A stretch of 52,687 nucleotides of DNA from an uncultured Clostridia bacterium (GTDB lineage: Bacteria > Bacillota > Clostridia > Christensenellales > UBA1242). Where the stretch lies: the NCBI GenBank assembly GCA_947626955.1, contig CANQUB010000004.1, positions 1 through 52,687 of the forward strand, given 5' to 3'. Positions 9,964-20,313 of the stretch are shown here, one piece after another; within the stretch, counting starts at the first letter, position 1, and each line of letters starts with the position of its first letter. The notes beneath the pieces are model-generated. The model had not been told where the DNA came from. It did no database searches and saw only the letters and a program-made list of their open reading frames with translations. The position numbers were made by a program, and so were the translations under genes.

Positions 9964-10029
9964 TTTTTAATCTCCTTTATAGTTTTATAATAACATATTT
10001 TGCCAAGAACTCAAAGCAAATTAAAGCAT

Positions 10030-10068
10030 AAAAAATAGAGCCCGACAAAAATCGAACTCTACTTTTTT
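10030..10068 (-). terminator. Intrinsic terminator
   Basis: Minus strand aaaagtagagttcga-loop-tcgggctctatttttt directly after TAG at 10069-10071. Confidence 0.7.
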
Positions 10069-10343
10069 CTAAGCTTCCTTTTTGAACAGTATCAAGGCAA
10101 GAGCCAATACCACAACTGTGAGCGCCACCAAAACCACATTGGTAATCGCTGCGTAGCCAACTTGTTAGAAGAGAGTCTTTAACCGTCTTCATAACGCTAG
10201 CCAGCACTAAAACAAAGGAAATCAGCACCAAAGCAGCAACAACCAACTTTAAGATATTTAGCTATTGCTTGCCTTTTTACTTTTTATGACATCAACACCG
10301 AATTAATAATTTTAGCCGGCATAATTGTTGTCTCATTTTCCAT
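10069..10343 (-). pseudogene. Degraded small membrane protein gene
   Basis: ATG at 10343 runs into an early stop; hydrophobic segments LVVAALVLISFVLVLA and QVGYAAITNVVLVALTVVVLALALILFKKEA* are in different frames; terminator follows the second. Confidence 0.5.
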
Positions 10344-10620
10344 TTTTCAACTTTCTCTTCCAAAATTGCAAAATATACGCATTTTCCACTGTATTTAACA
10401 TGTATCTTGCGTTTTTTAAAATTGTTTTTTACTCAGTTTTTAATTAAATCTTCTAGTTCGTTTAGTTCAAACAATCCTTCATCTAATTGATTGTATTATT
10501 GTGAAATCCTTTCAGTTTCACCTTTGTATTAAGTTGTTCAAATTGATTGTATTATTCATATATTTTAGTCCTTTCAAATTTTGTATTTTCTTTAATATCT
10601 CAATCAATTATCTCTTTCTG

Positions 10621-10683
10621 AAGGCAACCCCTTGAAGTGTGACCAATTTCTTCCTTTTTCCCATTAAGAGGAGCAATGATTTA
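10621..10683. repeat. 63-bp direct repeat, copy 1
   Basis: aaggcaaccccttgaagtgtgaccaat...gagcaatgattta; 50/63 ungapped identities by manual count with 11861..11923; overlaps the GIY-YIG stop codon. Confidence 0.85.
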
Positions 10684-11349
10684 ATGCATTTCTAAGCGTT
10701 CTCTTATGTCATTAAGTATCTCGCCATTATATTTAAAATACCTTGGACCTGCAACATGACCATCTTTACCTAATTTTAATAGTATTTTGGCTAATGCAGT
10801 TAATGACATTACTTCGCCATTAAATTCGACTCGCCTATCATCAACAACTATTGCAAACTTTGATTCATCACGTGCAAATGTTATCTTTGAACCAACAGGA
10901 ATATTACATTTTTTAAATGTAAATGGAGATGCTTTTTCTTGAGCTTCTATTTTTACTGCTGTTGCGATATTTTCCTCTTCTTTCTCGATGTCTGATTGCC
11001 CTACAATTTTTAATTTGTCTTTTGTTCCATGTATTTCTGCCATGGCATCAAATAAGTCATAAGCATCTTCAGCAGACATCGCATAAAATTCCCTAACCCT
11101 TTTCTTACCATTAATAGTTTCTCTTGATCTTAAATCCGGATTAAGTTTATCAATTATAGAATGTATTTTCATATCGGTTAATCTAACATTCACTTCATAT
11201 GTTGCAAATATTCTAAATCCAAATGGAGTGCACTCACTTCTATTAAGTTGTTTTACTCTTTGCTCAACATCATCGGCATAACCAATTTTAACCCACTCAG
11301 GAAATGATGGGTTTGTTAAAATATAAATGTAACCTTTTTCTTCTGTCAT
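10681..11349 (-). CDS. T5orf172/GIY-YIG nuclease-family protein with RAMA-like C-terminal domain
   Basis: GYIYILTNPSFPEWVKIGYA...RVKQL...PF.F...REFY N-terminal domain; C-terminal VEFNGEVMSLTALA...GPRYFKYNGEILNDIR. Confidence 0.8.
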   Translation of the reverse strand: MTEEKGYIYILTNPSFPEWVKIGYADDVEQRVKQLNRSECTPFGFRIFATYEVNVRLTDMKIHSIIDKLNPDLRSRETINGKKRVREFYAMSAEDAYDLFDAMAEIHGTKDKLKIVGQSDIEKEEENIATAVKIEAQEKASPFTFKKCNIPVGSKITFARDESKFAIVVDDRRVEFNGEVMSLTALAKILLKLGKDGHVAGPRYFKYNGEILNDIRERLEMH

Positions 11350-11371
11350 ACAATACTCCTTACTTGCGTTT

Positions 11372-11400
11372 ATTATATCATAAATTTAAAATATTTTCAA
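11372..11400 (-). promoter_or_regulatory. sigmaA promoter of the GIY-YIG gene
   Basis: TTGAAA-17 bp-TATAAT with extended TG; -35 lies in an imperfect inverted repeat 11388..11419. Confidence 0.6.
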
Positions 11401-11458
11401 AACACTTGAAAAATATTTTCACAAGAGTTAAAACACAACTCAATTATGGGAGGCTCTT

Positions 11459-11713
11459 ATGGATTTAATTCAGGTTATTTTAAGTGCTTATGAAGATAAA
11501 AGAATAAACAAACATTCTAAAACTTATAAAATGCTATGCAGGGTTGTTGATGCTGAAAACAAACTGCGTGCTACTTTTGATGAAAAACAAAAAGAACTCT
11601 ATCATGAATTTGATATACTAACTCTCGAATATCAAGGTTTACAAGACATAGAACTAATCAAGTTCATTTTAGAATTCTTTCACACCGTGCATAATCCGAT
11701 GGATAAAATATAA
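11459..11713 (+). CDS. Small helical hypothetical protein
   Basis: 84 aa ORF with GGGAGG RBS, divergent from the GIY-YIG gene. Confidence 0.6.
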   Translation: MDLIQVILSAYEDKRINKHSKTYKMLCRVVDAENKLRATFDEKQKELYHEFDILTLEYQGLQDIELIKFILEFFHTVHNPMDKI

Positions 11714-11860
11714 TTATTTTTTCTTTCCTTGCATATCTCAAAAATTGATACATTGATAATTTTCACACTCCTCTACTTATATAAGGACATTATCTTTAAA
11801 AAAATTTAGGCAGTAAATGCAAAAATTAAAAATTTCTTTAATTTTTTTACAATCACAAAA

Positions 11861-11923
11861 AAGGCCACACCTTGAGGTGTGACCAATCTTTTCTTTTCCC
11901 TAATCAAAAGCAGCAATGATTTA
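11861..11923. repeat. 63-bp direct repeat, copy 2, containing the res terminator
   Basis: Minus strand TAAATCATTGCTG...GGTCACAC-CTCAAG-GTGTGGCC-TTTTTT hairpin plus U tract, starting 4 bp after the res stop. Confidence 0.85.
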
Positions 11924-11927
11924 TGTT

Positions 11928-14531
11928 TTATAGCTCTTTCAAAATAGTCAAAAATTCATCTAATGTTATGGAATCTGGATTACTTTGTATATCTTCTTTT
12001 GATACCATATAATAACGATAATCTGCACCGGCCTGAGATTGCCATATTTTTCCCAACTCTGCTTTTTCTCTACTATTATCGTTTGAAGCCAAATAATCAC
12101 CTTTTGTTTCAATCATTACAATTTTTCCGCTATTTGTCATAGCTATAAAATCTGGGTAATGATTTAAAAATCCATTAATATAAAACTCTTGCCTATCTAT
12201 ATTACGGTGCCACCATTTAATATTTGATAAAGATGCAACCTTTTCAATAACATCCAATTCAAAACCATTTACTGATTGTTCTGCTGTATATAACGATTTT
12301 TGAAGGATTTTAAATGCGTTGGTTGGTGAAATTACAGAGCTAAAACTAAAAGATGGCAAGCAATAAATTTTCCCCTGTTCAAGCCACTCTCTAAATTTTT
12401 TCCTTTGGTGATCCATTTGCAATAGTTTAATTTTAGCCTCAATTTTTGATGTGTATCCATAAATATTTTTTTCAAGTTCAGCAATTGCTTCGCTATTCAT
12501 ATTATCAACAACACGATCAATGTAATCAGCCAAGTCAGAACCAGAAACATTATCTAACTTTTCTAATTGGGTTTTTATTTGATATTTACAGTTTCTTTTT
12601 TTGCTTTCAGGTGGCAAAGAATCAAAGATTTCTTTGTAAAATTTATTTTCCACACCCTCAAGTCTTCTATATTTAGGACTCTCGTTCTTATTTACATCAA
12701 TTTCATAAAAACTTTCAGTGGCAGTAGTAAAATCAATTTCTATATCTTTATCCCTTAGAGTAAAATTATCGAGCAACATTTCATTTGTTAAAAGCACTTT
12801 ATAATCACTATCCAATTGTGTAAATATATTTGGTTTTGGTTTTACAAAAAATTGAGGTATTTTTAGAATTTTTACTTCATCTTTAAAATTTTCATACATA
12901 ACATAATTACTCATTTTACTTCTAACCTCCAAGGGTAAATTACCAAACACTTCACTACTAGACTCTTTTAAAATTTCATCATAAGAATCACTTTTTTCTT
13001 CTGCACTTGCAAGCATAGATGTAATTGTGTTAGATGCCTGCCCCTTTCTATTAATTAGCTCTTCCTTTACCACTTCATCGTTAAATTGTAAAAATTCTTC
13101 TTGTTTATCAAGATTTTCCATTTTACTTTGAAGCATATGAACTTTTACCGGTTCGACTTCTTGCGTTTCAGCAATTCGATATTCTTTTTCACTAAAACCT
13201 GCATTGTTCAAACCTGTAATAACTTTCTTAATTGTTGAATTAAAATCATTCGAAGAAGTTAAAACATAAGAAAGATTTAAGAATTTGCTATCATGTTGTT
13301 TAGTATAAGGAAGTCTAAGTACTCTACCTAAAATTTGTTCAACATCAACTACCGAAGTTTTATTGGCAAGGGTAGCTAAAATATATGCAAAAGGACAATC
13401 CCAACCTTCTTTTAAGGCATTCACGGTTATAATGTATTTTATTTTGCAATCATGAGATAATAAATTGACATTTTTTATTTCATTTATTTCAGCTGTCTTA
13501 ATTGCTATTTCCTCTTTTGGAATACCTAATCCTACCAACCTTTCTTTCAATTTCTCAAAAGTTTCTTTATTTTCATCAATTTTTGGTTGAGCTTGAAACA
13601 ATACAATAGGTCTTATATAAACCCCATTATTTTTCTCGTTTTCAAGAGCCATGGTTTCTAATTTTTCTCTCAAATCTATTGCGTCAATAATTACTTGCTC
13701 TTGTGATGGTCTATTATACAGAATCACAGGCAGCTTAACCATATTTTCAGCTTTTAATTGTGAGGCATCAACATATGAAATTATATTGCTATTTTTTCGA
13801 GGCGTGGCAGTTAAATCTAAAATGAAACTCGGATTTAAATTTTTCAACATTTCAACACTGAGATCCCCTGTTGTATGATGACTTTCATCAACTATAACTA
13901 CCGGAGATAATTGATTTAAAACTTGAATTAGAGCAGTATCATCAACATTTTCAATTTTTGTTGCTGGTGTTGGAGAATAGTTTGCAAAAGTATTTAAGTT
14001 TCCGTTTTCTTGATATATTTTTCTTGCCTCTTTATTTCTAATTCTCAAACTATCAAAGCTCATTACAATAATTGATAACTGCTCATTTATTTGTGTGATG
14101 TTAAATTGTTGCCCATCTAATGCCTGTTGTTTCGTATAAATTTGAACTCTTCCGTTAAAATCCGTTTCAATTTTTTGTCTATATGGATGAGAAGGGTTTG
14201 TTAAATTATTTAAAGTCTGTGTTAGTATTGCTTCTGATGGCACAAGCCAAACTACAACTTTTAATTTTTCGCTTGGCAAATTGTTAAAAATAACTCTTAA
14301 AGCATTACAAGCTAAAAAGGTTTTTCCACCACCTGTTGGAACTTTAAAACAAACATGTGGGGTATTGGAAATTGTGTTGTTGTATGTAGCAAGTCCATTA
14401 AATCCAACATTTACACCTTGGTTGAGCCAAAGCTTATTATATGCAGAAACAACACTACCTGTTTCATTTAATAATTGGCAATAACTTTCTAAATCATTAA
14501 TTACCTTTTTTTGAAATTTTTTAAGTTCCAT
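11928..14531 (-). CDS. res: Type III restriction enzyme Res subunit
   Basis: SF2 helicase motifs KVPTGGGKT, DESHH, LTATP, LKEGWDCP, EQILGRVLR; C-terminal PD-(D/E)xK nuclease YPDFI...IETKG. Confidence 0.9.
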   Translation of the reverse strand: MELKKFQKKVINDLESYCQLLNETGSVVSAYNKLWLNQGVNVGFNGLATYNNTISNTPHVCFKVPTGGGKTFLACNALRVIFNNLPSEKLKVVVWLVPSEAILTQTLNNLTNPSHPYRQKIETDFNGRVQIYTKQQALDGQQFNITQINEQLSIIVMSFDSLRIRNKEARKIYQENGNLNTFANYSPTPATKIENVDDTALIQVLNQLSPVVIVDESHHTTGDLSVEMLKNLNPSFILDLTATPRKNSNIISYVDASQLKAENMVKLPVILYNRPSQEQVIIDAIDLREKLETMALENEKNNGVYIRPIVLFQAQPKIDENKETFEKLKERLVGLGIPKEEIAIKTAEINEIKNVNLLSHDCKIKYIITVNALKEGWDCPFAYILATLANKTSVVDVEQILGRVLRLPYTKQHDSKFLNLSYVLTSSNDFNSTIKKVITGLNNAGFSEKEYRIAETQEVEPVKVHMLQSKMENLDKQEEFLQFNDEVVKEELINRKGQASNTITSMLASAEEKSDSYDEILKESSSEVFGNLPLEVRSKMSNYVMYENFKDEVKILKIPQFFVKPKPNIFTQLDSDYKVLLTNEMLLDNFTLRDKDIEIDFTTATESFYEIDVNKNESPKYRRLEGVENKFYKEIFDSLPPESKKRNCKYQIKTQLEKLDNVSGSDLADYIDRVVDNMNSEAIAELEKNIYGYTSKIEAKIKLLQMDHQRKKFREWLEQGKIYCLPSFSFSSVISPTNAFKILQKSLYTAEQSVNGFELDVIEKVASLSNIKWWHRNIDRQEFYINGFLNHYPDFIAMTNSGKIVMIETKGDYLASNDNSREKAELGKIWQSQAGADYRYYMVSKEDIQSNPDSITLDEFLTILKEL

Positions 14532-14540
14532 TATTTCTCC

Positions 14541-16154
14541 TTATAATTTTGCTATGTCTCTAGGTATTTTTTTAAATATAATGCCGTATTGAGTAAGCAT
14601 TTCTTTTGATAAATTGCAAACATCGGCATATATTACATAATTAGCACATTTTGTTTTAATCCCCGATAAAAAATCTATATCTAACGTTGTTCTTTTATCT
14701 TTTTCGTAATAAAAATAATATGCAGTATCATTATTCGAACCCAAATAATATTCATTATCATTGTCATTTTTTATTATAGCTTTTTTAGTTTCCATAAAAT
14801 AGATATATCTTCTTATTTCTTCGATTTGCAATTCTTCATTTAAATTTTTACCATCTCTAAAAATTGGCTCGCCTAATTCATAGTAACTAAAACTCCCTTT
14901 TATTCCTGCAATAGCCTTATCGCCTTCACCATATCCTTGAATAACTCTTTTTACACGCTCTGCTGTAATTGTTTCAGTATAATCCATCATCTCAACAAGA
15001 ATAAATTTACGGTTACCATTATCCCGTTTATTAAGATTAAGTACGGCGTGTGCAGTTGTACCCGAACCGGCAAATGAATCAAGAATTATTGAGTTTGAAT
15101 TGTTTACAAATTTTAAAAGATACTCAATAAGAGATACAGGCTTAGGATAATCAAAAACTTTGGCACCGTTTAAGATTAAGTCAACGTCCTTACCAGCCTC
15201 TTCTGTTGTACTTACACCCACTGATTCATCAATTAAGTTTGGTGGAACTTCTGGTTCGTAATTTGCTCTTTTATATGATAATACTAAATTATTAGATAAA
15301 TTAATAGTAGTGCCTTTTTCAATATTTTCATCTAGTGTGCTTTGAATCCAAATAAATTTATTTTCAAAGGTAACATCATTAACATTTTTACCATCTTTGA
15401 TAATCATATCATTTAATAATTTATTTGGAAATTTTTGGGTCCCATAAGTTCCAGCTTTGTAAACACCATCCTTACCTTTAAAGTTTATAACCCCTGATTT
15501 AAAATTTAATCTTTTCAATGAATTTTGTGGTTTAGTAAATGGATCATCACTAGGACTAGATTTTTGAACTCCTAAATATCTTTGATTATTTTTATTTTTT
15601 TCATAACAAACTATGTATTCAAGATTTTTCTTTATTTTATTAGACAAATTCGGAGGAGTTGCAGACTTATACCACATCCATTGACCTATAAAGTTTGTTC
15701 TACCGAATATTTCATCACAAATAAGTTTCAAGTTGGCAAGTTCATTATCATCTATACTTATAAAAATTCTACCATTTTCATTTAAAAGTTTTTGTAGAAG
15801 TTTTAATCTTGGATACATCATACAGAGCCATTTATCGTGTCTCGATAAATCTTCTCCTTCAGGTCCAACAACCTCTCCCAACCATTTTTTTATCCTTGGA
15901 TCATCTACATTATCACTATACACCCATTGACCTTCTTTTTTCCCCGTGTTATAAGGAGGATCAATATAAACACAGTCAACCAAACCTTCATATTGAGGTA
16001 ATAAAGATTTCAATGCTAAAAGATTATCCCCATGTATTATCATATTTTCACTTTTTTCAGAATTAAAAGTATACTTTTTTTTCAACGTCCTATAAGGAAC
16101 TTCCTGATGATGGTTTATAACCTTTTCTTTCCCGATCCAATTTAATGTTGGCAT
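14541..16154 (-). CDS. mod: Type III R-M Mod subunit (beta-class adenine methyltransferase)
   Basis: MPTLNWIGK start, GDNLLALK, YIDPPYNTG (motif IV), HDKWLCMMYPRL, FDYPKP, DSFAGSGTTAHA (motif I). Confidence 0.92.
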   Translation of the reverse strand: MPTLNWIGKEKVINHHQEVPYRTLKKKYTFNSEKSENMIIHGDNLLALKSLLPQYEGLVDCVYIDPPYNTGKKEGQWVYSDNVDDPRIKKWLGEVVGPEGEDLSRHDKWLCMMYPRLKLLQKLLNENGRIFISIDDNELANLKLICDEIFGRTNFIGQWMWYKSATPPNLSNKIKKNLEYIVCYEKNKNNQRYLGVQKSSPSDDPFTKPQNSLKRLNFKSGVINFKGKDGVYKAGTYGTQKFPNKLLNDMIIKDGKNVNDVTFENKFIWIQSTLDENIEKGTTINLSNNLVLSYKRANYEPEVPPNLIDESVGVSTTEEAGKDVDLILNGAKVFDYPKPVSLIEYLLKFVNNSNSIILDSFAGSGTTAHAVLNLNKRDNGNRKFILVEMMDYTETITAERVKRVIQGYGEGDKAIAGIKGSFSYYELGEPIFRDGKNLNEELQIEEIRRYIYFMETKKAIIKNDNDNEYYLGSNNDTAYYFYYEKDKRTTLDIDFLSGIKTKCANYVIYADVCNLSKEMLTQYGIIFKKIPRDIAKL

Positions 16155-16185
16155 AAAAACTCCTTTGTAAAAATTTATTTAGCAC

Positions 16186-16194
16186 ATTATAGCA
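16186..16194 (-). promoter_or_regulatory. Extended -10 promoter of mod-res
   Basis: TGCTATAAT upstream of the AAAGGAG RBS and mod ATG. Confidence 0.55.
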
Positions 16195-16225
16195 TACTAA
16201 TTCATATTTTGTATATGATAAAATC

Positions 16226-16253
16226 AAAAAAACAGCAAAAATTAATTTTGCTG
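16226..16253 (-). terminator. Weak intrinsic terminator after rnlB
   Basis: cagcaaaa-ttaat-ttttgctg followed by a T tract on the minus strand. Confidence 0.55.
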
Positions 16254-16270
16254 CCTATTCAATTATTTTA

Positions 16271-16606
16271 CTAATCTAAATATATAAACTTTTTAATACT
16301 TTTGGATAATGTAGAACTTTCAAGCACTTCATTATTTTGCTTGAAATATTCGTGCGTATTTTCTTTTATTAACTCAGATACATATCTTGGATTTATTACT
16401 CTTGAGGTTACTTCATTCTCTTTATTAAATATTAATTCTATAAATCGATTAAAAGAAAAACCATTCCTATAAAACATATCTACAAGCACTCTTCCTTTAT
16501 TAGACACTTTTCTTATTTCGTCATATAGATAATACATATCTTCATTTGATAACAATAAAACATAACTTTCATAGTTATTAATCTTAAATAACATAAATTT
16601 TTTCAT
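16271..16606 (-). CDS. rnlB: RnlB-family antitoxin
   Basis: GRVLVDMFYRNGFSFNRFIEL and LESSTLS resemble E. coli RnlB (GEILFDLLCANGPEWNRFVTL; LEASVLS) as recalled; directly downstream of the RnlA-like gene. Confidence 0.82.
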   Translation of the reverse strand: MKKFMLFKINNYESYVLLLSNEDMYYLYDEIRKVSNKGRVLVDMFYRNGFSFNRFIELIFNKENEVTSRVINPRYVSELIKENTHEYFKQNNEVLESSTLSKSIKKFIYLD

Positions 16607-16615
16607 ATTAATTTC

Positions 16616-17632
16616 CTAAAATAAGATTTTATAAGTTTCTTCGATTACTTCCAAAATTTCATCTCTTAATTCTTCTGCCTCTTTATAATTTTGAATAACT
16701 CTCATTTGTGCAGGATCAATGGTGCTGTGCGTATATACATTTCGTTTATCACAATATGTATCATAAAGTTTATATAGTGCATCTTTATCTTTCTGTGAAA
16801 TATCTGTCCTTAAATCAATCTCTGTCAGACCATTTTTTTTGTACCTTTTAAATGGGCTTAAGTTTTGCTTTAATGTAAAATGAAATTTTTGTGTAAGCAA
16901 TTTCTTTATATATCCTTCTAGTGCTTTAAAAACCCCGGTTAGAGGTGAAGAATAATCTTCTGATTCTATTTTGGAATTAATAAAACTAAACGAACCAGAA
17001 ATTGATTTCAATTGAGCCTCTTCCATATAATTATATGAAGTTTTTAAGATTTGCTTAATTCTACTACGTATAATATTAGCACTGTAAGCCTCTTCGCTAA
17101 ACTGTTTCCCCAAATCTACATAATCATCAAACGAAATTATATCCAAACTGGCAATAAAAGTTAATACAATATTAAAAGTATAATATGGCTTACCCTGAAT
17201 AACAATATTATTACTGTTCTTTGTAATCGTTATTTTATCATTGTTAAAACTTGTAAGTATATACCTATTTTCTATAATTGATATTGTTATTTTCCCAGCA
17301 AATTCAGATCGTATATAGTCTAGTATATCATTTATAATTTCTGCATTTTTAATAACAAGTTGATTAGAAAATTTATCATCTTTAATTCCATATTCTTCTA
17401 AATATTTTATAAGAACAAAAGCCAACTCTTTATTTTTACCAACACAAATAGGATTAATGCCATCTTTTAATAAATGAATATCTACTTGACAATCCATTCT
17501 ATTAACAAAAAATTTACATATAATTTTTGTTTGAGAATATCTTATTTCCTTCTTTGTAAAATTAGGATTTTCATCAAAAAATTTTTCCAATAAGTATTTT
17601 ACACTGTCTTTATTTATAAGTATCTTAGACAT
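16616..17632 (-). CDS. rnlA: RnlA/LsoA-family HEPN endoribonuclease toxin
   Basis: VDI...KDG...GKNKELA, D.ITI...IQGKP, DYS..L...KALEG.IK and catalytic R-x4-H (RNVYTH) parallel E. coli RnlA; similar length. Confidence 0.85.
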   Translation of the reverse strand: MSKILINKDSVKYLLEKFFDENPNFTKKEIRYSQTKIICKFFVNRMDCQVDIHLLKDGINPICVGKNKELAFVLIKYLEEYGIKDDKFSNQLVIKNAEIINDILDYIRSEFAGKITISIIENRYILTSFNNDKITITKNSNNIVIQGKPYYTFNIVLTFIASLDIISFDDYVDLGKQFSEEAYSANIIRSRIKQILKTSYNYMEEAQLKSISGSFSFINSKIESEDYSSPLTGVFKALEGYIKKLLTQKFHFTLKQNLSPFKRYKKNGLTEIDLRTDISQKDKDALYKLYDTYCDKRNVYTHSTIDPAQMRVIQNYKEAEELRDEILEVIEETYKILF

Positions 17633-17634
17633 AT

Positions 17635-18927
17635 TTACCTCCCAGTTCTATATACATCTACTGCACATAATTTATTATTCACAGACCCAATTTTAAAATA
17701 AATATTGTCATTTTCTTTAAGATGAATTTTTATTTTTTTTAGTGAGAAGTACATAGATTTTACTCCATTGTATTGAATAAAGCCAAACTTTTTATCATAA
17801 TTAATTTTTGAAATGGTCCCAAATTTCAATTCATCTGTCTTTTTGATTACTTCTAAAGCACGATTCAATAATTGTTTTATATTAGGTGGTCTATCTCTAT
17901 TTAAACAAAATTCTTTTTCTGCAAACCTTAATTCTTCTTGTATAAACCAACCAAATGAAGACCTATAATATAATGTGGCCTCATAAAACTCTTTTGCCTT
18001 ATCGAGTTCGTTTGAATTTTCAAATAGTATCCCTAAATCGAATATCAAATTTATCATTTTTTCTTTGTCAAAGTTGTCACATAGGATAGCTTTACAAGAA
18101 TAATAAAGTGCTTTACTAACATCTCCACTTGAAAAATATAAGTTTGCTAATTTATGATACATATACCAAAAATTATGTTTTTCAGCTATCTCTTTATAGC
18201 TTTCTATATCCTCTTTTCTACCACTTAATAAACATCCACAATATAATTTTCTCGCAGCAAACCACAATCCATTTCCATAGTGTAGTTTTTCAAATGTGTT
18301 CAGTGCAACATCACACAATTCCATACATTCTTCAAATTTTTCTATTCTTTCTAAGCATTTCGTTTTAACTTGATAATAAAATTCTTTATAGGATGCCATC
18401 TCATAGGTTTGACCATTCTGGGCCTGAATTTCTTTGGGCTCAATTGGTAATAATTCTGAATTCAGTTTATTTATCCATTTCAATTCTTGATAATAACTTG
18501 TTGCAGCTCTATGTCTTAAAACTTGCACAACCTTATATATAGTCAACACATAAGGATTAAACATAAAATGTTCAACATCAAGTTGTTCGCAATTTTCTGT
18601 AATTAATTCAGCTATTGATATAAAATGTTCAAATGTTTCCTCAGAATAAATGTATGAACTTATTTCTGCAGAATACAAACAATATAAGTAAGCATCATTA
18701 ACATATTTTCTTTTCTTAACCTCTTCATAATCAAAAGTGCGTATTTTATCAATAAATAACTGTGCTTGTTCATGCTTTCTTAGTTTCTGACCTAACTTGC
18801 TTAGAATAAAGGAATCGGACAAATTAGCTTCTTCTAAAATCTTTAAATATTCAGAAAAAGCATCTTCCATAGAAGAAGATTCTAATAATTCCGCCTTTTC
18901 AAATTTTAACTTTAACTGTTCATTCAT
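17635..18927 (-). CDS. Helical-repeat (TPR-like) protein with C-terminal cold-shock/OB-fold domain
   Basis: TPR-like segments (WYMYHKLANLYFSSGDVSKALYYSCKAI; LGILFENSNELDKAKEFYEA); last ~60 aa GTISKINYDKKFGFI...YF...L...D.I.F.I......AVDV match the CSD pattern. Confidence 0.75.
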   Translation of the reverse strand: MNEQLKLKFEKAELLESSSMEDAFSEYLKILEEANLSDSFILSKLGQKLRKHEQAQLFIDKIRTFDYEEVKKRKYVNDAYLYCLYSAEISSYIYSEETFEHFISIAELITENCEQLDVEHFMFNPYVLTIYKVVQVLRHRAATSYYQELKWINKLNSELLPIEPKEIQAQNGQTYEMASYKEFYYQVKTKCLERIEKFEECMELCDVALNTFEKLHYGNGLWFAARKLYCGCLLSGRKEDIESYKEIAEKHNFWYMYHKLANLYFSSGDVSKALYYSCKAILCDNFDKEKMINLIFDLGILFENSNELDKAKEFYEATLYYRSSFGWFIQEELRFAEKEFCLNRDRPPNIKQLLNRALEVIKKTDELKFGTISKINYDKKFGFIQYNGVKSMYFSLKKIKIHLKENDNIYFKIGSVNNKLCAVDVYRTGR

Positions 18928-18933
18928 AATTTC

Positions 18934-18942
18934 ATTATAACA
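18934..18942 (-). promoter_or_regulatory. Extended -10 promoter 6 bp upstream of the TPR-CSD start (probable leaderless mRNA)
   Basis: TGTTATAAT-gaaatt-ATG; no Shine-Dalgarno. Confidence 0.55.
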
Positions 18943-19029
18943 TTAAAAAAATAATTTTTACTATACTTTATAAAATATTTATTTAATTTATTTTAGCATC
19001 AAAATTTTATATTGTTTAAAAACTAATAA

Positions 19030-19911
19030 TCAAATCTTAAAATACTCTAACCATTGTTTATATTTATCTTGGGCGGCGAGGCAGGTGTCAGTTAGATAGC
19101 CTCGCTCTGTTTTCCATTCTTTTAAACCACGATAATAATAAAATTTAAACTCATCCTCTATTATAAATGGAATAATATTATTTGCAAGGCATTCTTTAAA
19201 CATAATCAAACGCCCTACTCTGCCATTGCCATCTTGAAAAGGATGTATTCTCTCAAACTGCTCGTGAAATTCAATTATATCATTGATGGTTTTGGACTGT
19301 TTTGCATTATACTTTGTCAAAAGTTTTTTAATTTCTTCTGCGACTTTTTCCGGTGGACAGGTTTCGTTGCCACCAACTTCATTTGGTCTGGATTTATATT
19401 CACCAACATTAAACCAATCTTTTCGGCTATCGCTCGTACCTGATTTTAATGTGTAATGTAACTCTTTAATAAATTTTTCTGTTAAAGGCTTTTTCGCATT
19501 ATCAATAACCATATCAACGCACTTAAAGTGATTATTCGTTTCCACAATATCATCAACCTTCACGCCATTGGTTTCGCCGAGTGTGTTGGTTTCAAAAATC
19601 ATTCGAGTTTGGTCTTCAGTAAGCGTGCTGCCCTCAATGTGATTTGAATTATAAGTGAGTGCAATTTGCGTTTTATGATAAATTCCACCCTTGAGTTTCA
19701 TATCCTTTTCTTCTTTTAATCTATTAAGAAGTGGATTATCACTAAATTCTTTATGCTCTACCCTTTCTGGTTTTTCTGCATCCTCCGGAATAATCCAAGT
19801 TTTGCCTTTAAGTTCAGCTCCTTTTACTCTGCCTTGCTGACAATAATTTCGCACAGACCTTTCACTTATATTCCATTTTTTTGCAATTTCACTTGCCGTT
19901 AAAAATCCCAT
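19030..19911 (-). CDS. Fic-family protein with N-terminal excisionase-like HTH
   Basis: LTASEIAKKWNISERSVRNYCQQGRV HTH; Fic motif HPFQDGNGRVGR; inhibitory helix SNHIEG. Confidence 0.9.
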   Translation of the reverse strand: MGFLTASEIAKKWNISERSVRNYCQQGRVKGAELKGKTWIIPEDAEKPERVEHKEFSDNPLLNRLKEEKDMKLKGGIYHKTQIALTYNSNHIEGSTLTEDQTRMIFETNTLGETNGVKVDDIVETNNHFKCVDMVIDNAKKPLTEKFIKELHYTLKSGTSDSRKDWFNVGEYKSRPNEVGGNETCPPEKVAEEIKKLLTKYNAKQSKTINDIIEFHEQFERIHPFQDGNGRVGRLIMFKECLANNIIPFIIEDEFKFYYYRGLKEWKTERGYLTDTCLAAQDKYKQWLEYFKI

Positions 19912-19937
19912 AAATTACCTCATTTTCATACAAATAA

Positions 19938-19966
19938 ATTATATCCTATATCGGCAATTAAGTCAA
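19938..19966 (-). promoter_or_regulatory. sigmaA promoter of HTH-Fic
   Basis: TTGACT-17 bp-TATAAT; spacer contains ATTGCCGATAT. Confidence 0.75.
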
Positions 19967-19984
19967 TAAAATTACATATATATT

Positions 19985-20002
19985 ATTGCCGATATCGGCA
20001 AT
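19985..20002. promoter_or_regulatory. Perfect 18-bp palindromic operator candidate
   Basis: ATTGCCGATATCGGCAAT; partial copy ATATCGGCAAT at 19948..19958. Confidence 0.65.
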
Positions 20003-20051
20003 TTTATAAAAAATAATCTGGTGATTATATCCTAAACTTTTGAAATAATTA

Positions 20052-20069
20052 TACACCTATTTACACCTA
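20052..20069. repeat. TACACCTA direct repeat pair (10-bp period)
   Basis: tacaccta-tt-tacaccta; the same octamer recurs as an inverted repeat at 20317..20337. Confidence 0.6.
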
Positions 20070-20210
20070 ATGGGATAGTTTTGGGCAGAACACAAGAGGT
20101 TTAGAGCGGTTTTTCGGGTTGTGGCAGTGGATTTTTGGTCGGGTGCTTATATGTTATATTATTATAACTTTTTAAAAATAAAATTTGTTATTATTATAAA
20201 ACTTTTAACA

Positions 20211-20234
20211 AAAGAAAAAGCCGATAAAATCGGC
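20211..20234 (-). terminator. Intrinsic terminator after tRNA-Thr
   Basis: GCCGAT-ttt-ATCGGC followed by tttttcttt on the minus strand. Confidence 0.7.
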
Positions 20235-20237
20235 ATT

Positions 20238-20313
20238 TGGAGCTGGTGAAGGGATTCGAACCCTTGGTCCCGTGATTACGAATCACGTGCTTTACCAACT
20301 AAGCTACACCAGC
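20238..20313 (-). tRNA. tRNA-Thr(CGT)
   Basis: GCTGGTGTAGCTTAGTTGGTAAAGCACGTGATTCGTAATCACGGGACCAAGGGTTCGAATCCCTTCACCAGCTCCA; cloverleaf with encoded CCA. Confidence 0.95.

What the first reader, a model, noticed from the sequence alone, without database searches (positions are those of the whole stretch)
16271..18927. Candidate tripartite antiphage system: TPR-cold-shock-domain protein + RnlA HEPN toxin + RnlB antitoxin
Seen: three tightly coupled genes (2-bp and 9-bp gaps) under one upstream promoter and one terminator, with no room for an intergenic promoter before rnlA. Known: RnlAB/LsoAB are two-gene type II TA systems of E. coli that restrict T4 lacking Dmd, and RnlA is a HEPN RNase (R-x4-H present here as RNVYTH). 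The first gene is a 430-aa helical-repeat protein ending in a cold-shock/OB nucleic-acid-binding domain; I know of no such third component for RnlAB. Inference: the TPR-CSD protein may sense a phage protein or nucleic acid, or scaffold the toxin and target it to RNA, forming a sensor-toxin-antitoxin system in a Gram-positive anaerobe.
Basis: partly seen in the sequence, partly recalled or inferred. Interest (0 to 1): 0.85.

Follow-up and report, generated by a model that had tools for sequence, protein, structure and literature searches.

The report
TPR-cold-shock partner of RnlAB toxin-antitoxin
Three tightly packed genes encode an RNA-cutting toxin, its antidote and a large repeat protein ending in an RNA-binding domain; the trio is kept together in dozens of gut and environmental bacteria and fits a predicted but untested class of anti-virus systems called TOTE.

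Summary
On the minus strand lie a 430-aa TPR + cold-shock-domain (CSD) gene (18927..17635), an RnlA-like gene (17632..16616, RNVYTH motif) and an RnlB-like gene (16606..16271), with gaps of 2 and 9 bp and a terminator-like hairpin after the last gene.

The linkage is not chance. 27 of 30 genome loci found with the TPR-CSD protein carry all three genes in this order. 54 of 64 metagenome loci found with the RnlA-like protein have TPR-CSD directly upstream; 7 of the other 10 have no upstream sequence. No flanking gene family is shared by more than 10 of 63 loci.

TPR-OB(CSD) proteins paired with TBP-domain effectors have been named TOTE (TPR, OB, TBP, Effector) conflict systems. I saw this only as cited in a 2025 preprint and in a Pfam family name. 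RnlA is TBP-TBP-HEPN, so this operon is a TOTE-type system with an RnlA effector plus RnlB. Distant TPR-CSD relatives sit beside other TBP or RNase H-type effectors.

How the TPR-CSD protein works is inferred, not shown. I found no experimental test of any such system. Verdict: a real, conserved new member of a predicted kind, of moderate interest.

The parts
18990..19033 (-). Two overlapping sigma-70-like promoter matches in the 102-bp spacer between the Fic gene and the TPR-CSD gene
   Evidence: TTGATT-18-TAAAAT; TAAACA-17-TAAAAT with TG. Pattern match only. One search shows no Shine-Dalgarno before the ATG at 18927, and a TATAAT that ends 7 nt before it.
17635..18927 (-). TPR-CSD gene (430 aa): helical TPR-like solenoid (residues 3-364) plus a C-terminal cold-shock/OB barrel. 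This is the 'T' and 'O' of a TOTE-type system.
   Evidence: PADLOC PDLC01170, 1.8e-31; pLDDT 93.5; generic TPR fold matches, TM about 0.35-0.43; CSD profile matches.
17647..17826 (-). Cold-shock-like OB barrel (residues 368-427), with conserved G370, G382, F383, I384 and F394
16616..17632 (-). RnlA-like toxin (338 aa): TBP-like, TBP-like, HEPN RNase
   Evidence: profile matches LsoA at 2.3e-15 and RnlA at 2.8e-8; pLDDT 87.2. E. coli RnlA 4i8o_A at E 9.7e-12, TM 0.67.
16727..16744 (-). HEPN R-x4-H motif RNVYTH (R297..H302); R297, N298 and H302 are invariant in 52 sequences
16271..16606 (-). RnlB-like antitoxin (111 aa)
   Evidence: 27 of 27 members match PF15933; profile matches E. coli RnlB 6y2p_C at 3.7e-9.
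16220..16256 (-). Terminator-like hairpin (11 pairs) followed by a T run, 14 nt after the RnlB-like stop codon

Best explanation
This is a three-gene defence operon of the TOTE type (TPR, OB, TBP, Effector).

The effector is an RnlA-like endoribonuclease with two TBP-like nucleic-acid-binding domains and a HEPN domain. By homology it cuts RNA as a HEPN dimer through its R-x4-H site. It is held inactive by the RnlB-like antitoxin encoded just downstream.

The upstream TPR-CSD protein is an obligate third partner. I infer that it is the sensing or targeting subunit. Its cold-shock barrel would bind single-stranded RNA or DNA, and its TPR solenoid would hold a protein (the toxin, the antitoxin or a phage product). 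RNase activity would then be released or directed when phage nucleic acid appears, stopping the infection by RNA degradation.

Shown here: the gene order, the family and fold of all three proteins, the conserved linkage and the defence-island context. Inferred: RNase activity, neutralisation, sensing, and any contact between the TPR-CSD protein and the other two.
For: Linkage, starting from the TPR-CSD protein:
- 27 of 30 genome loci hold all three genes in the same order and strand. One more is cut inside the RnlA-like gene by the contig end.

Linkage, starting from the RnlA-like protein:
- 54 of 64 metagenome loci have TPR-CSD directly upstream. 7 of the remaining 10 have no upstream sequence.
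- The commonest spacing between the TPR-CSD and RnlA-like genes is 2 nt (16 of 63 unique loci), and many overlap.
- No flanking family occurs in more than 10 of 63 loci. The flanks examined are integrases and other defence genes such as a Schlafen-like helicase, DUF4145, an Eco57I methylase and HamA.
- Pairwise distances of the three proteins co-vary (r 0.83-0.89; 0 of 999 permutations reach the observed value). The genes therefore diversify as one unit.

Family and fold:
- 27 of 27 proteins scanned (the window plus 26 loci) match RnlA-toxin_DBD, 26 of 27 match RnlA_toxin, and 27 of 27 match RnlB_antitoxin.
- The fold model matches E. coli RnlA over its full length (TM 0.67).
- R297, N298 and H302 are invariant.

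TOTE frame:
- Passages of PMC12458937 say that a TPR-CSD fusion and TBP proteins define TOTE.
- RnlA's two N-terminal domains are TBP-like (passages of PMC8266594).
- More distant TPR-CSD relatives sit next to a helicase with two PF22721 TBP-TOTE domains (L130), a TBP-like/RnlA-like HEPN fused to RNase HII (L131), a UvrD helicase with RNase H1 N-terminal domains (L100) and a protein with an MrfA Zn-binding domain (L128).
- One relative (P0101) is itself a fusion of a Swt1-type HEPN with TPR-CSD.

Accessory modules look interchangeable: in a sample of 401 genomes of the phylum, the two RnlA-like genes that lack TPR-CSD within about 4.7 kb upstream carry an N-terminal Cauli_VI + RNase H module instead.

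Context: the operon lies in a low-GC island (25-33% against 42-47%) with a type III restriction-modification system, a T5orf172 protein and an HTH-Fic protein.
Against: There is no functional or expression evidence. No RNA run was listed for this stretch.

Exceptions to the linkage:
- One locus (L048) keeps intact RnlA- and RnlB-like genes with an IS21 element where TPR-CSD should be. The pair can therefore persist without it, at least for a while.
- L027 has a split TPR-CSD gene and no RnlA- or RnlB-like gene in the next 855 nt.
- L071 has 543 nt upstream of the RnlA-like gene with no TPR-CSD similarity; it is a low-coverage contig that looks chimeric.
- L099, a distant RnlA-like fragment, has 1.8 kb upstream without TPR-CSD.

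Weaknesses in the family assignments:
- The window's TPR-CSD protein scores below Pfam's cut-offs for CSD (20 against 27 bits) and DUF7017 (24.2 against 27.5). On its own, its CSD finds no solved cold-shock protein. Only the family profile and the model show the fold.
- The RnlA-like protein did not match PF22721 TBP-TOTE at E up to 0.1. A profile comparison with a TBP-TOTE helicase was not significant (probability 0.5).
- In the alignment to LsoA, the first catalytic Arg of LsoA (RAIEG) is Lys here (KALEG).

Limits of the sampling:
- The DNA patterns used for the metagenome scan came from this RnlA clade, so that scan cannot show how RnlA genes in general are arranged.
- I could not read the paper that defines TOTE.
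Confidence: 0.6

Rival explanations
1. The TPR-CSD protein is not a sensor. It is a helper of the antitoxin or a regulator. Either it acts as a chaperone-like stabiliser of RnlB, as the SecB-like chaperone does in toxin-antitoxin-chaperone systems, or it is a cold-shock-type RNA binder that tunes translation or stability of the operon's own mRNA.
For: TPR solenoids commonly hold partner proteins, and CSDs commonly act on mRNA (general knowledge). Three-part toxin-antitoxin systems with a helper are known, for example CmdTAC in passages of PMC9519451. L048 shows the RnlA/RnlB-like pair intact without TPR-CSD, so the third gene is not needed for bare neutralisation. The TPR-CSD gene comes first in the operon and is tightly coupled to the toxin gene.
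Against: The same TPR-CSD family also accompanies effectors that have no RnlB-like gene nearby: a helicase with TBP-TOTE domains, an RNase HII fusion and a UvrD helicase with RNase H1 N-terminal domains. A role tied to RnlB alone cannot be the family's general job. No data address binding.
Confidence: 0.2
2. The trio is mainly an addiction or stabilisation module for the genomic island that carries it, with no role against phage.
For: RnlAB-type pairs are toxin-antitoxin modules. The locus lies in a low-GC island next to a tRNA gene. Related loci sit beside integrases.
Against: E. coli RnlAB and LsoAB act against T4 dmd mutants (abstract and passages of PMC8266594; passages of PMC3710099). Neighbours here and in related loci are defence genes. 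An addiction role does not explain a conserved 430-aa nucleic-acid-binding partner. No copy was found on plasmids (0 matches) or in viral contigs.
Confidence: 0.12
3. The TPR-CSD gene is only a neighbour of an ordinary two-gene RnlAB pair.
For: Canonical RnlAB and LsoAB are two-gene systems. One locus lacks the TPR-CSD gene.
Against: Conserved order, strand and tight spacing hold in 27 of 30 and 54 of 64 loci across varied flanks, with co-varying divergence.
Confidence: 0.03

Closest known systems
[quoted passage not shown]
   Same: A TPR-CSD/OB protein is encoded beside a protein that joins TBP-like domains to a nuclease effector. Relatives of the window's TPR-CSD protein sit beside proteins with Pfam TBP-TOTE domains and RNase H-type modules. 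PMC12458937 (passages) describes 'a TPR-CSD fusion and TBP' as the shared TOTE genes and says TOTE often includes RNase H domains.
   Different: I could not read the defining review, so I cannot say whether an RnlA effector with an RnlB antitoxin is part of the published description. The window's RnlA-like protein matches Pfam's RnlA domain families, not PF22721. I found no paper reporting an experimental test of a TOTE system, but I did not search for one specifically; only one held paper uses the name.
RnlA-RnlB and LsoA-LsoB of Escherichia coli (type II toxin-antitoxin, anti-T4 defence)
   Same: The gene order is toxin then antitoxin. The toxin has the same three-domain fold (TM 0.67 to 4i8o_A) and the same R-x4-H motif. 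The antitoxin belongs to the same family.
   Different: The E. coli systems have two genes. Here a 430-aa TPR-CSD gene is coupled upstream in nearly every member of the clade. Sequence identity to E. coli RnlA is about 13-15% in the fold alignment. LsoA's first catalytic Arg is Lys here. Hosts are uncultured Clostridia, Bacilli and similar, by record titles.
RnlA homologues fused to an N-terminal Cauli_VI + RNase H module (noted in the 2013 HEPN survey, PMC3710099)
   Same: They have an RnlA-type TBP + HEPN core followed by an RnlB-like gene, as seen in G343 and G388.
   Different: Their accessory nucleic-acid-recognition module is fused in cis and is an RNase H. Here it is a separate TPR-CSD protein. 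The two arrangements did not co-occur in the loci I examined.
[quoted passage not shown]
   Same: They share the TPR-CSD component. A distant relative in G282 lies beside a protein with the MrfA Zn-binding domain. That this domain marks YprA-like helicases is recalled.
   Different: TALON has a YprA helicase and a NERD nuclease, with no RnlA or RnlB.
TPR-OB region of human SAMD9/SAMD9L
   Same: TPR arrays are followed by a five-strand OB barrel in an antiviral protein (passages of preprint 10.64898/2026.02.02.703423).
   Different: This is a resemblance of architecture only. Homology was not tested here, and the Foldseek search of solved structures did not list SAMD9.

Membership tests
RnlA/LsoA (RNase LS) toxin family | Three-domain architecture of TBP-like, TBP-like and HEPN | tested here: met
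   Pfam RnlA-toxin_DBD in 27 of 27 members, RnlA_toxin in 26 of 27, RnlA_toxin_N in 12 of 27. The profile matches LsoA over 21-322 of 343 positions. The model matches 4i8o_A at TM 0.67.
RnlA/LsoA (RNase LS) toxin family | HEPN R-x4-6-H catalytic motif | tested here: met
   RNVYTH at 16744..16727. R297, N298 and H302 are invariant in 52 sequences.
RnlA/LsoA (RNase LS) toxin family | First catalytic pair, Arg and Glu (R255/E258 in E. coli RnlA, per PMC8266594) | tested here: inconclusive
   In the alignment to LsoA the family's K-A-L-E-G lies over LsoA's R-A-I-E-G. E239 is invariant, and K236 is at least 90% conserved in place of Arg.
RnlA/LsoA (RNase LS) toxin family | Endoribonuclease activity and toxicity | not testable with these tools
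   Needs expression and RNA cleavage assays.
RnlB antitoxin family | Sequence membership, and position directly downstream of the toxin gene | tested here: met
   PF15933 at 1.5e-10, above cut-off. 27 of 27 members match. The profile matches E. coli RnlB 6y2p_C at 3.7e-9. The gap to the toxin gene is 9 nt.
RnlB antitoxin family | Binds the HEPN dimer and blocks the toxin | not testable with these tools
   Inferred from homology only.
TOTE conflict systems | TPR repeat protein | tested here: met
   Model with 20 helices over residues 3-364. Foldseek's best matches are all TPR proteins. PADLOC 'TPR' model at 1.8e-31.
TOTE conflict systems | OB / cold-shock domain fused to the TPR | tested here: met
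   Five-strand barrel over 368-427. The family profile matches CspB, CspA and Unr cold-shock domains at E 1e-8 to 1e-6. The single sequence is below Pfam's cut-off.
TOTE conflict systems | TBP-like domain in the partner protein | tested here: met
   The partner is a full-length structural match to RnlA, whose first two domains are TBP-like (PMC8266594). It does not match PF22721 itself.
TOTE conflict systems | Effector domain joined to the TBP domain | tested here: met
   HEPN RNase domain with an intact R-x4-H motif.
TOTE conflict systems | Agreement with the original published definition, including whether RnlA/RnlB versions are covered | not testable with these tools
   The review is not held. 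I saw only its citation and paraphrase in PMC12458937.
Pfam DUF7017 (PF22860) | Score above the gathering cut-off | tested here: not met
   Window protein: 24.2 bits against 27.5. Relatives do pass, for example L128 at 43 bits and L100 at 36.6 bits.
Canonical type II toxin-antitoxin pair | Two-gene module | tested here: not met
   A third gene is conserved in 27 of 30 and 54 of 64 loci.

The most novel reading that the evidence does not exclude
The TPR-CSD protein is a dedicated infection sensor that takes over the trigger role in a toxin-antitoxin pair. On binding phage single-stranded RNA or DNA through its cold-shock barrel, its TPR groove captures the RnlB antitoxin, or re-arranges the RnlA dimer, and so switches on the RNase. 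This would be a sensor-gated toxin-antitoxin system in which activation no longer depends on passive decay of the antitoxin. In this family the separate TPR-CSD subunit would be the functional swap for the RNase H module fused to, or acting with, other RnlA toxins.
Probability: 0.3. Interest if true: 0.75.

Novelty: new member of a known kind. Interest (0 to 1): 0.5.

Why it matters
How toxin-antitoxin defence systems sense phage is an open question. For RnlAB the usual account is decay of the unstable antitoxin after host shut-off. A clade in which the same pair is always joined to a separately encoded nucleic-acid-binding TPR protein gives a simple test. One-, two- and three-gene constructs would show whether a dedicated sensor or targeting subunit controls a HEPN RNase.

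It would also be a first experimental entry point into TOTE systems. As far as my searches reach, these are known only from sequence analysis. Their TPR-OB module recalls the TPR-OB region of the human antiviral protein SAMD9.

The practical value is modest. The system is rare: TPR-CSD relatives turned up in 7 of 401 sampled genomes of the phylum, and the RnlAB-linked form in 2 of 401.

Tried and rejected
- Complex prediction of RnlA-like + RnlB-like + TPR-CSD: no verdict. The score was 0.70, but the control with the RnlA-like chain replaced scored 0.73. This is neither support for nor evidence against binding.
- Expression: no RNA holder was listed for 16200-19100. I did not lay reads, because all 11 listed runs are DNA contigs.
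- Viral contigs searched with the RnlA-like profile: none confirmed.
- Plasmids searched with the TPR-CSD protein: no match.
- Phage records: one distant match, 22% identity. It turned out to be a DUF7017-TPR protein beside a UvrD/Cauli_VI helicase.
- Profile comparison of the RnlA-like family with a TBP-TOTE helicase: not significant.
- The window's CSD alone against solved structures: no cold-shock hit.
- Search for an integrase or att repeats bounding the low-GC island: none found.
- Earlier-findings look-ups: nothing relevant.
- Literature: searches for RnlA with TPR, cold-shock, tripartite or third component, and for DUF7017, found no paper describing a TPR-CSD + RnlAB operon. Only one held paper uses 'TOTE' in this sense.
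- Mere-neighbour reading: rejected on the synteny counts.
Full report
**What is there.** The minus strand of the window carries three co-directional ORFs:
- 18927..17635, 430 aa
- 17632..16616, 338 aa
- 16606..16271, 111 aa

Reading the junctions confirms gaps of 2 and 9 nt. A GGGAGG ribosome-binding site for gene 2 lies inside the end of gene 1. A terminator-like hairpin (16256..16230) follows gene 3, and promoter-like matches lie in the 102-bp spacer upstream of gene 1. These signals are pattern matches only. The same scan also lists weaker promoter-like matches inside gene 1, at 17822..17794 and 17786..17757. 'One promoter' is therefore plausible but not shown. No RNA data could be found.

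**What the proteins are.**
- *Gene 2* matches Pfam's RnlA families. A profile of 52 relatives matches solved LsoA (2.3e-15) and RnlA (2.8e-8). Its AlphaFold2 model (pLDDT 87.2) matches E. coli RnlA over the full length (4i8o_A, E 9.7e-12, TM 0.67). RNVYTH is the HEPN R-x4-H motif, and R297, N298 and H302 are invariant. In the alignment to LsoA the first catalytic Arg is Lys in this clade.
- *Gene 3* matches RnlB by Pfam (1.5e-10) and by profile against solved RnlB (3.7e-9).
- *Gene 1* is modelled with high confidence (pLDDT 93.5) as a helical repeat solenoid (residues 3-364), a short hairpin (165-177) and a five-strand barrel (368-427). Foldseek returns only generic TPR proteins. The family profile matches many cold-shock domains. 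The single sequence is below Pfam's cut-offs for CSD and DUF7017. It matches a PADLOC model described as 'TPR repeats containing protein fused to cold shock-like domain (OB-fold)' at 1.8e-31.
- In the alignment of 52 relatives, G370, G382 and F394 are invariant, and F383 and I384 are nearly so. That these resemble the RNP motifs of cold-shock proteins is my recollection, not a test.

**Is the linkage real?** Starting from the TPR-CSD protein, a scan of one genome per species returned 30 loci.
- 27 carry TPR-CSD, RnlA-like and RnlB-like genes in that order on one strand.
- L014 is cut inside the RnlA-like gene by the contig end.
- L030 ends inside the TPR-CSD gene.
- L027 has a split TPR-CSD gene and no RnlA- or RnlB-like gene in the remaining 855 nt.

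The window and 26 of these loci were scanned with Pfam; L013 was left out because its ORF sizes match those of L012. All 27 proteins match RnlA-toxin_DBD and all 27 match RnlB_antitoxin.

Starting from the RnlA-like protein, a metagenome scan returned 64 loci.
- 54 have a TPR-CSD gene directly upstream.
- 7 begin at or within about 50 nt of the RnlA-like gene, so cannot be judged.
- 3 lack TPR-CSD although upstream sequence is present: L048 has an IS21 element in its place, L071 is a low-coverage contig that looks chimeric, and L099 is a distant fragment.

The DNA patterns for this scan came from this clade, so the result says that the clade is uniformly three-gene. It says nothing about RnlA genes in general.

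Across 63 loci with unique TPR-CSD sequences:
- No flanking family is shared by more than 10 loci.
- The flanks examined are integrases and other defence genes.
- The three proteins' pairwise distances co-vary (r 0.83-0.89).

Record titles place the loci in uncultured Clostridia, Bacilli, Selenomonadales, an Acholeplasma and one bin labelled Bacteroidales.

In a sample of 401 genomes of the window's phylum:
- RnlA-like genes occur in 4 genomes.
- TPR-CSD relatives at E <= 1e-8 occur in 7.
- The three-gene form occurs in 2 (the window's genome and G304).

**The wider family changes the reading.** More distant full-length TPR-CSD relatives are not followed by RnlA- or RnlB-like genes. Their neighbours are:
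- G072: followed by a helicase with two Pfam 'TBP-TOTE' domains.
- G227: preceded by a 621-aa protein joining a TBP-like/RnlA-like HEPN region (with an R-x4-H in the alignment, at low probability) to RNase HII.
- G282: beside a protein with the MrfA Zn-binding domain (all three).
- A phage-labelled contig: a DUF7017-TPR protein precedes a UvrD helicase with RNase H1 N-terminal domains.
- G253: directly after type III CRISPR-Cas genes.

The Pfam name led to the literature. [quoted passage not shown] 2022)'. It adds that TOTE often includes RNase H domains. The crystal-structure paper on RnlA (PMC8266594, passages read) shows that RnlA's first two domains are TBP-like. So the window's operon has every letter of TOTE, plus an RnlB antitoxin.

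The defining review is not held. I therefore cannot say whether the RnlA/RnlB form is explicitly described there. The 2013 HEPN survey from the same group (PMC3710099, passages read) lists RNase LS as fused to RNase H or to a TBP-like domain, and in an operon with RnlB. It makes no mention of a TPR-CSD partner.

A whole-library profile search found 417 representatives at E <= 1e-30 and 1023 at E <= 1e-10. The roughly 27 best scores, above 310 bits, look like the RnlAB-linked clade. One representative (P0101) fuses a Swt1-type HEPN domain to TPR-CSD in a single chain. This supports a working partnership between this scaffold and HEPN RNases.

**How it most likely works.** By homology, the RnlA-like protein is a HEPN endoribonuclease active as a dimer and blocked by RnlB at the active site (PMC8266594). 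The TPR-CSD protein is the conserved extra. Three things lead me to infer that it supplies nucleic-acid recognition or targeting, and possibly the trigger:
- The same family accompanies several different TBP-bearing effectors.
- RnlA-like genes without it carry a fused Cauli_VI + RNase H module instead (G343 and G388).
- Its cold-shock barrel keeps conserved aromatic positions.

The L048 locus suggests that it is not needed for neutralisation. The main rival reading is a helper or regulator of the antitoxin or of the operon's own mRNA.

**Novelty and verdict.** The system is a new, well-populated member of a class that has been predicted and named but, as far as my searches reach, not tested. 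It is also a three-gene variant of the well-studied RnlAB pair. Interest is moderate. It would rise if the TPR-CSD protein proves to be a sensor that gates a toxin-antitoxin pair.

Noticed in passing
window 10000-20313: A low-GC island (25-33% against 42-47%) ends at tRNA-Thr (20238-20313, minus strand). It holds a T5orf172 protein (10681-11349), type III restriction Res (11928-14531) and Mod (14541-16154), the three-gene operon, and an HTH-Fic protein (19030-19911; PADLOC candidate PDC-S04, 4.7e-114). No integrase or att-like repeat was found.
   Followed up: partly
window 10621-10683 and 11861-11923: A 63-nt direct repeat (79% identity) lies just past the 3' ends of the T5orf172 and Res genes. 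Its function is unknown.
   Followed up: no
window 19929-20003: Two 31-nt direct repeats (84% identity) overlap the best promoter-like site of the region (19966..19938, 11 of 12 matches) upstream of the Fic gene. They look like an operator.
   Followed up: no
window 18927-18950: The TPR-CSD start codon has no Shine-Dalgarno sequence, and a TATAAT ends 7 nt before the ATG. This could mean a leaderless transcript, or co-transcription with the Fic gene.
   Followed up: no
L048 1756-3886: IS21-type transposase genes (444 and 267 aa) sit directly upstream of intact RnlA- and RnlB-like genes, where the TPR-CSD gene normally lies. The IS21 family name is my reading of the translations; I did not run Pfam on them.
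   Followed up: partly
L071 49-1566: On a low-coverage contig, a 505-aa ORF joins about 165 unrelated N-terminal residues to the RnlA-like protein from about its residue 8. Part of the extra sequence looks like an RNase R-type cold-shock region to my eye. It is probably an assembly chimera.
   Followed up: no
P0101 and P0158 (one search hits): Fused forms of the TPR-CSD family exist. P0101 (707 aa) carries an N-terminal Swt1-like HEPN domain. P0158 (772 aa) carries a BT4734-like N-terminal domain.
   Followed up: partly
L143 935-9455 (G253): A 524-aa TPR-CSD relative lies directly after RAMP, Cas6 and Cas1 genes. It is followed by a 691-aa protein with no Pfam match and by an HNH protein. This may link the family to type III CRISPR-Cas.
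   Followed up: no
L130 95-1447 (G072): A CCA-adding-enzyme-like gene (PolyA_pol + HD) lies just upstream of a TPR-CSD + helicase/TBP-TOTE pair. It could be a housekeeping gene or an RNA-repair partner.
   Followed up: no
window 17635-18927, residues C83, C201, H216, C232: Several Cys and His residues in the TPR part are invariant or nearly so in 52 sequences. Whether they form a metal site could not be checked without model coordinates.
   Followed up: no
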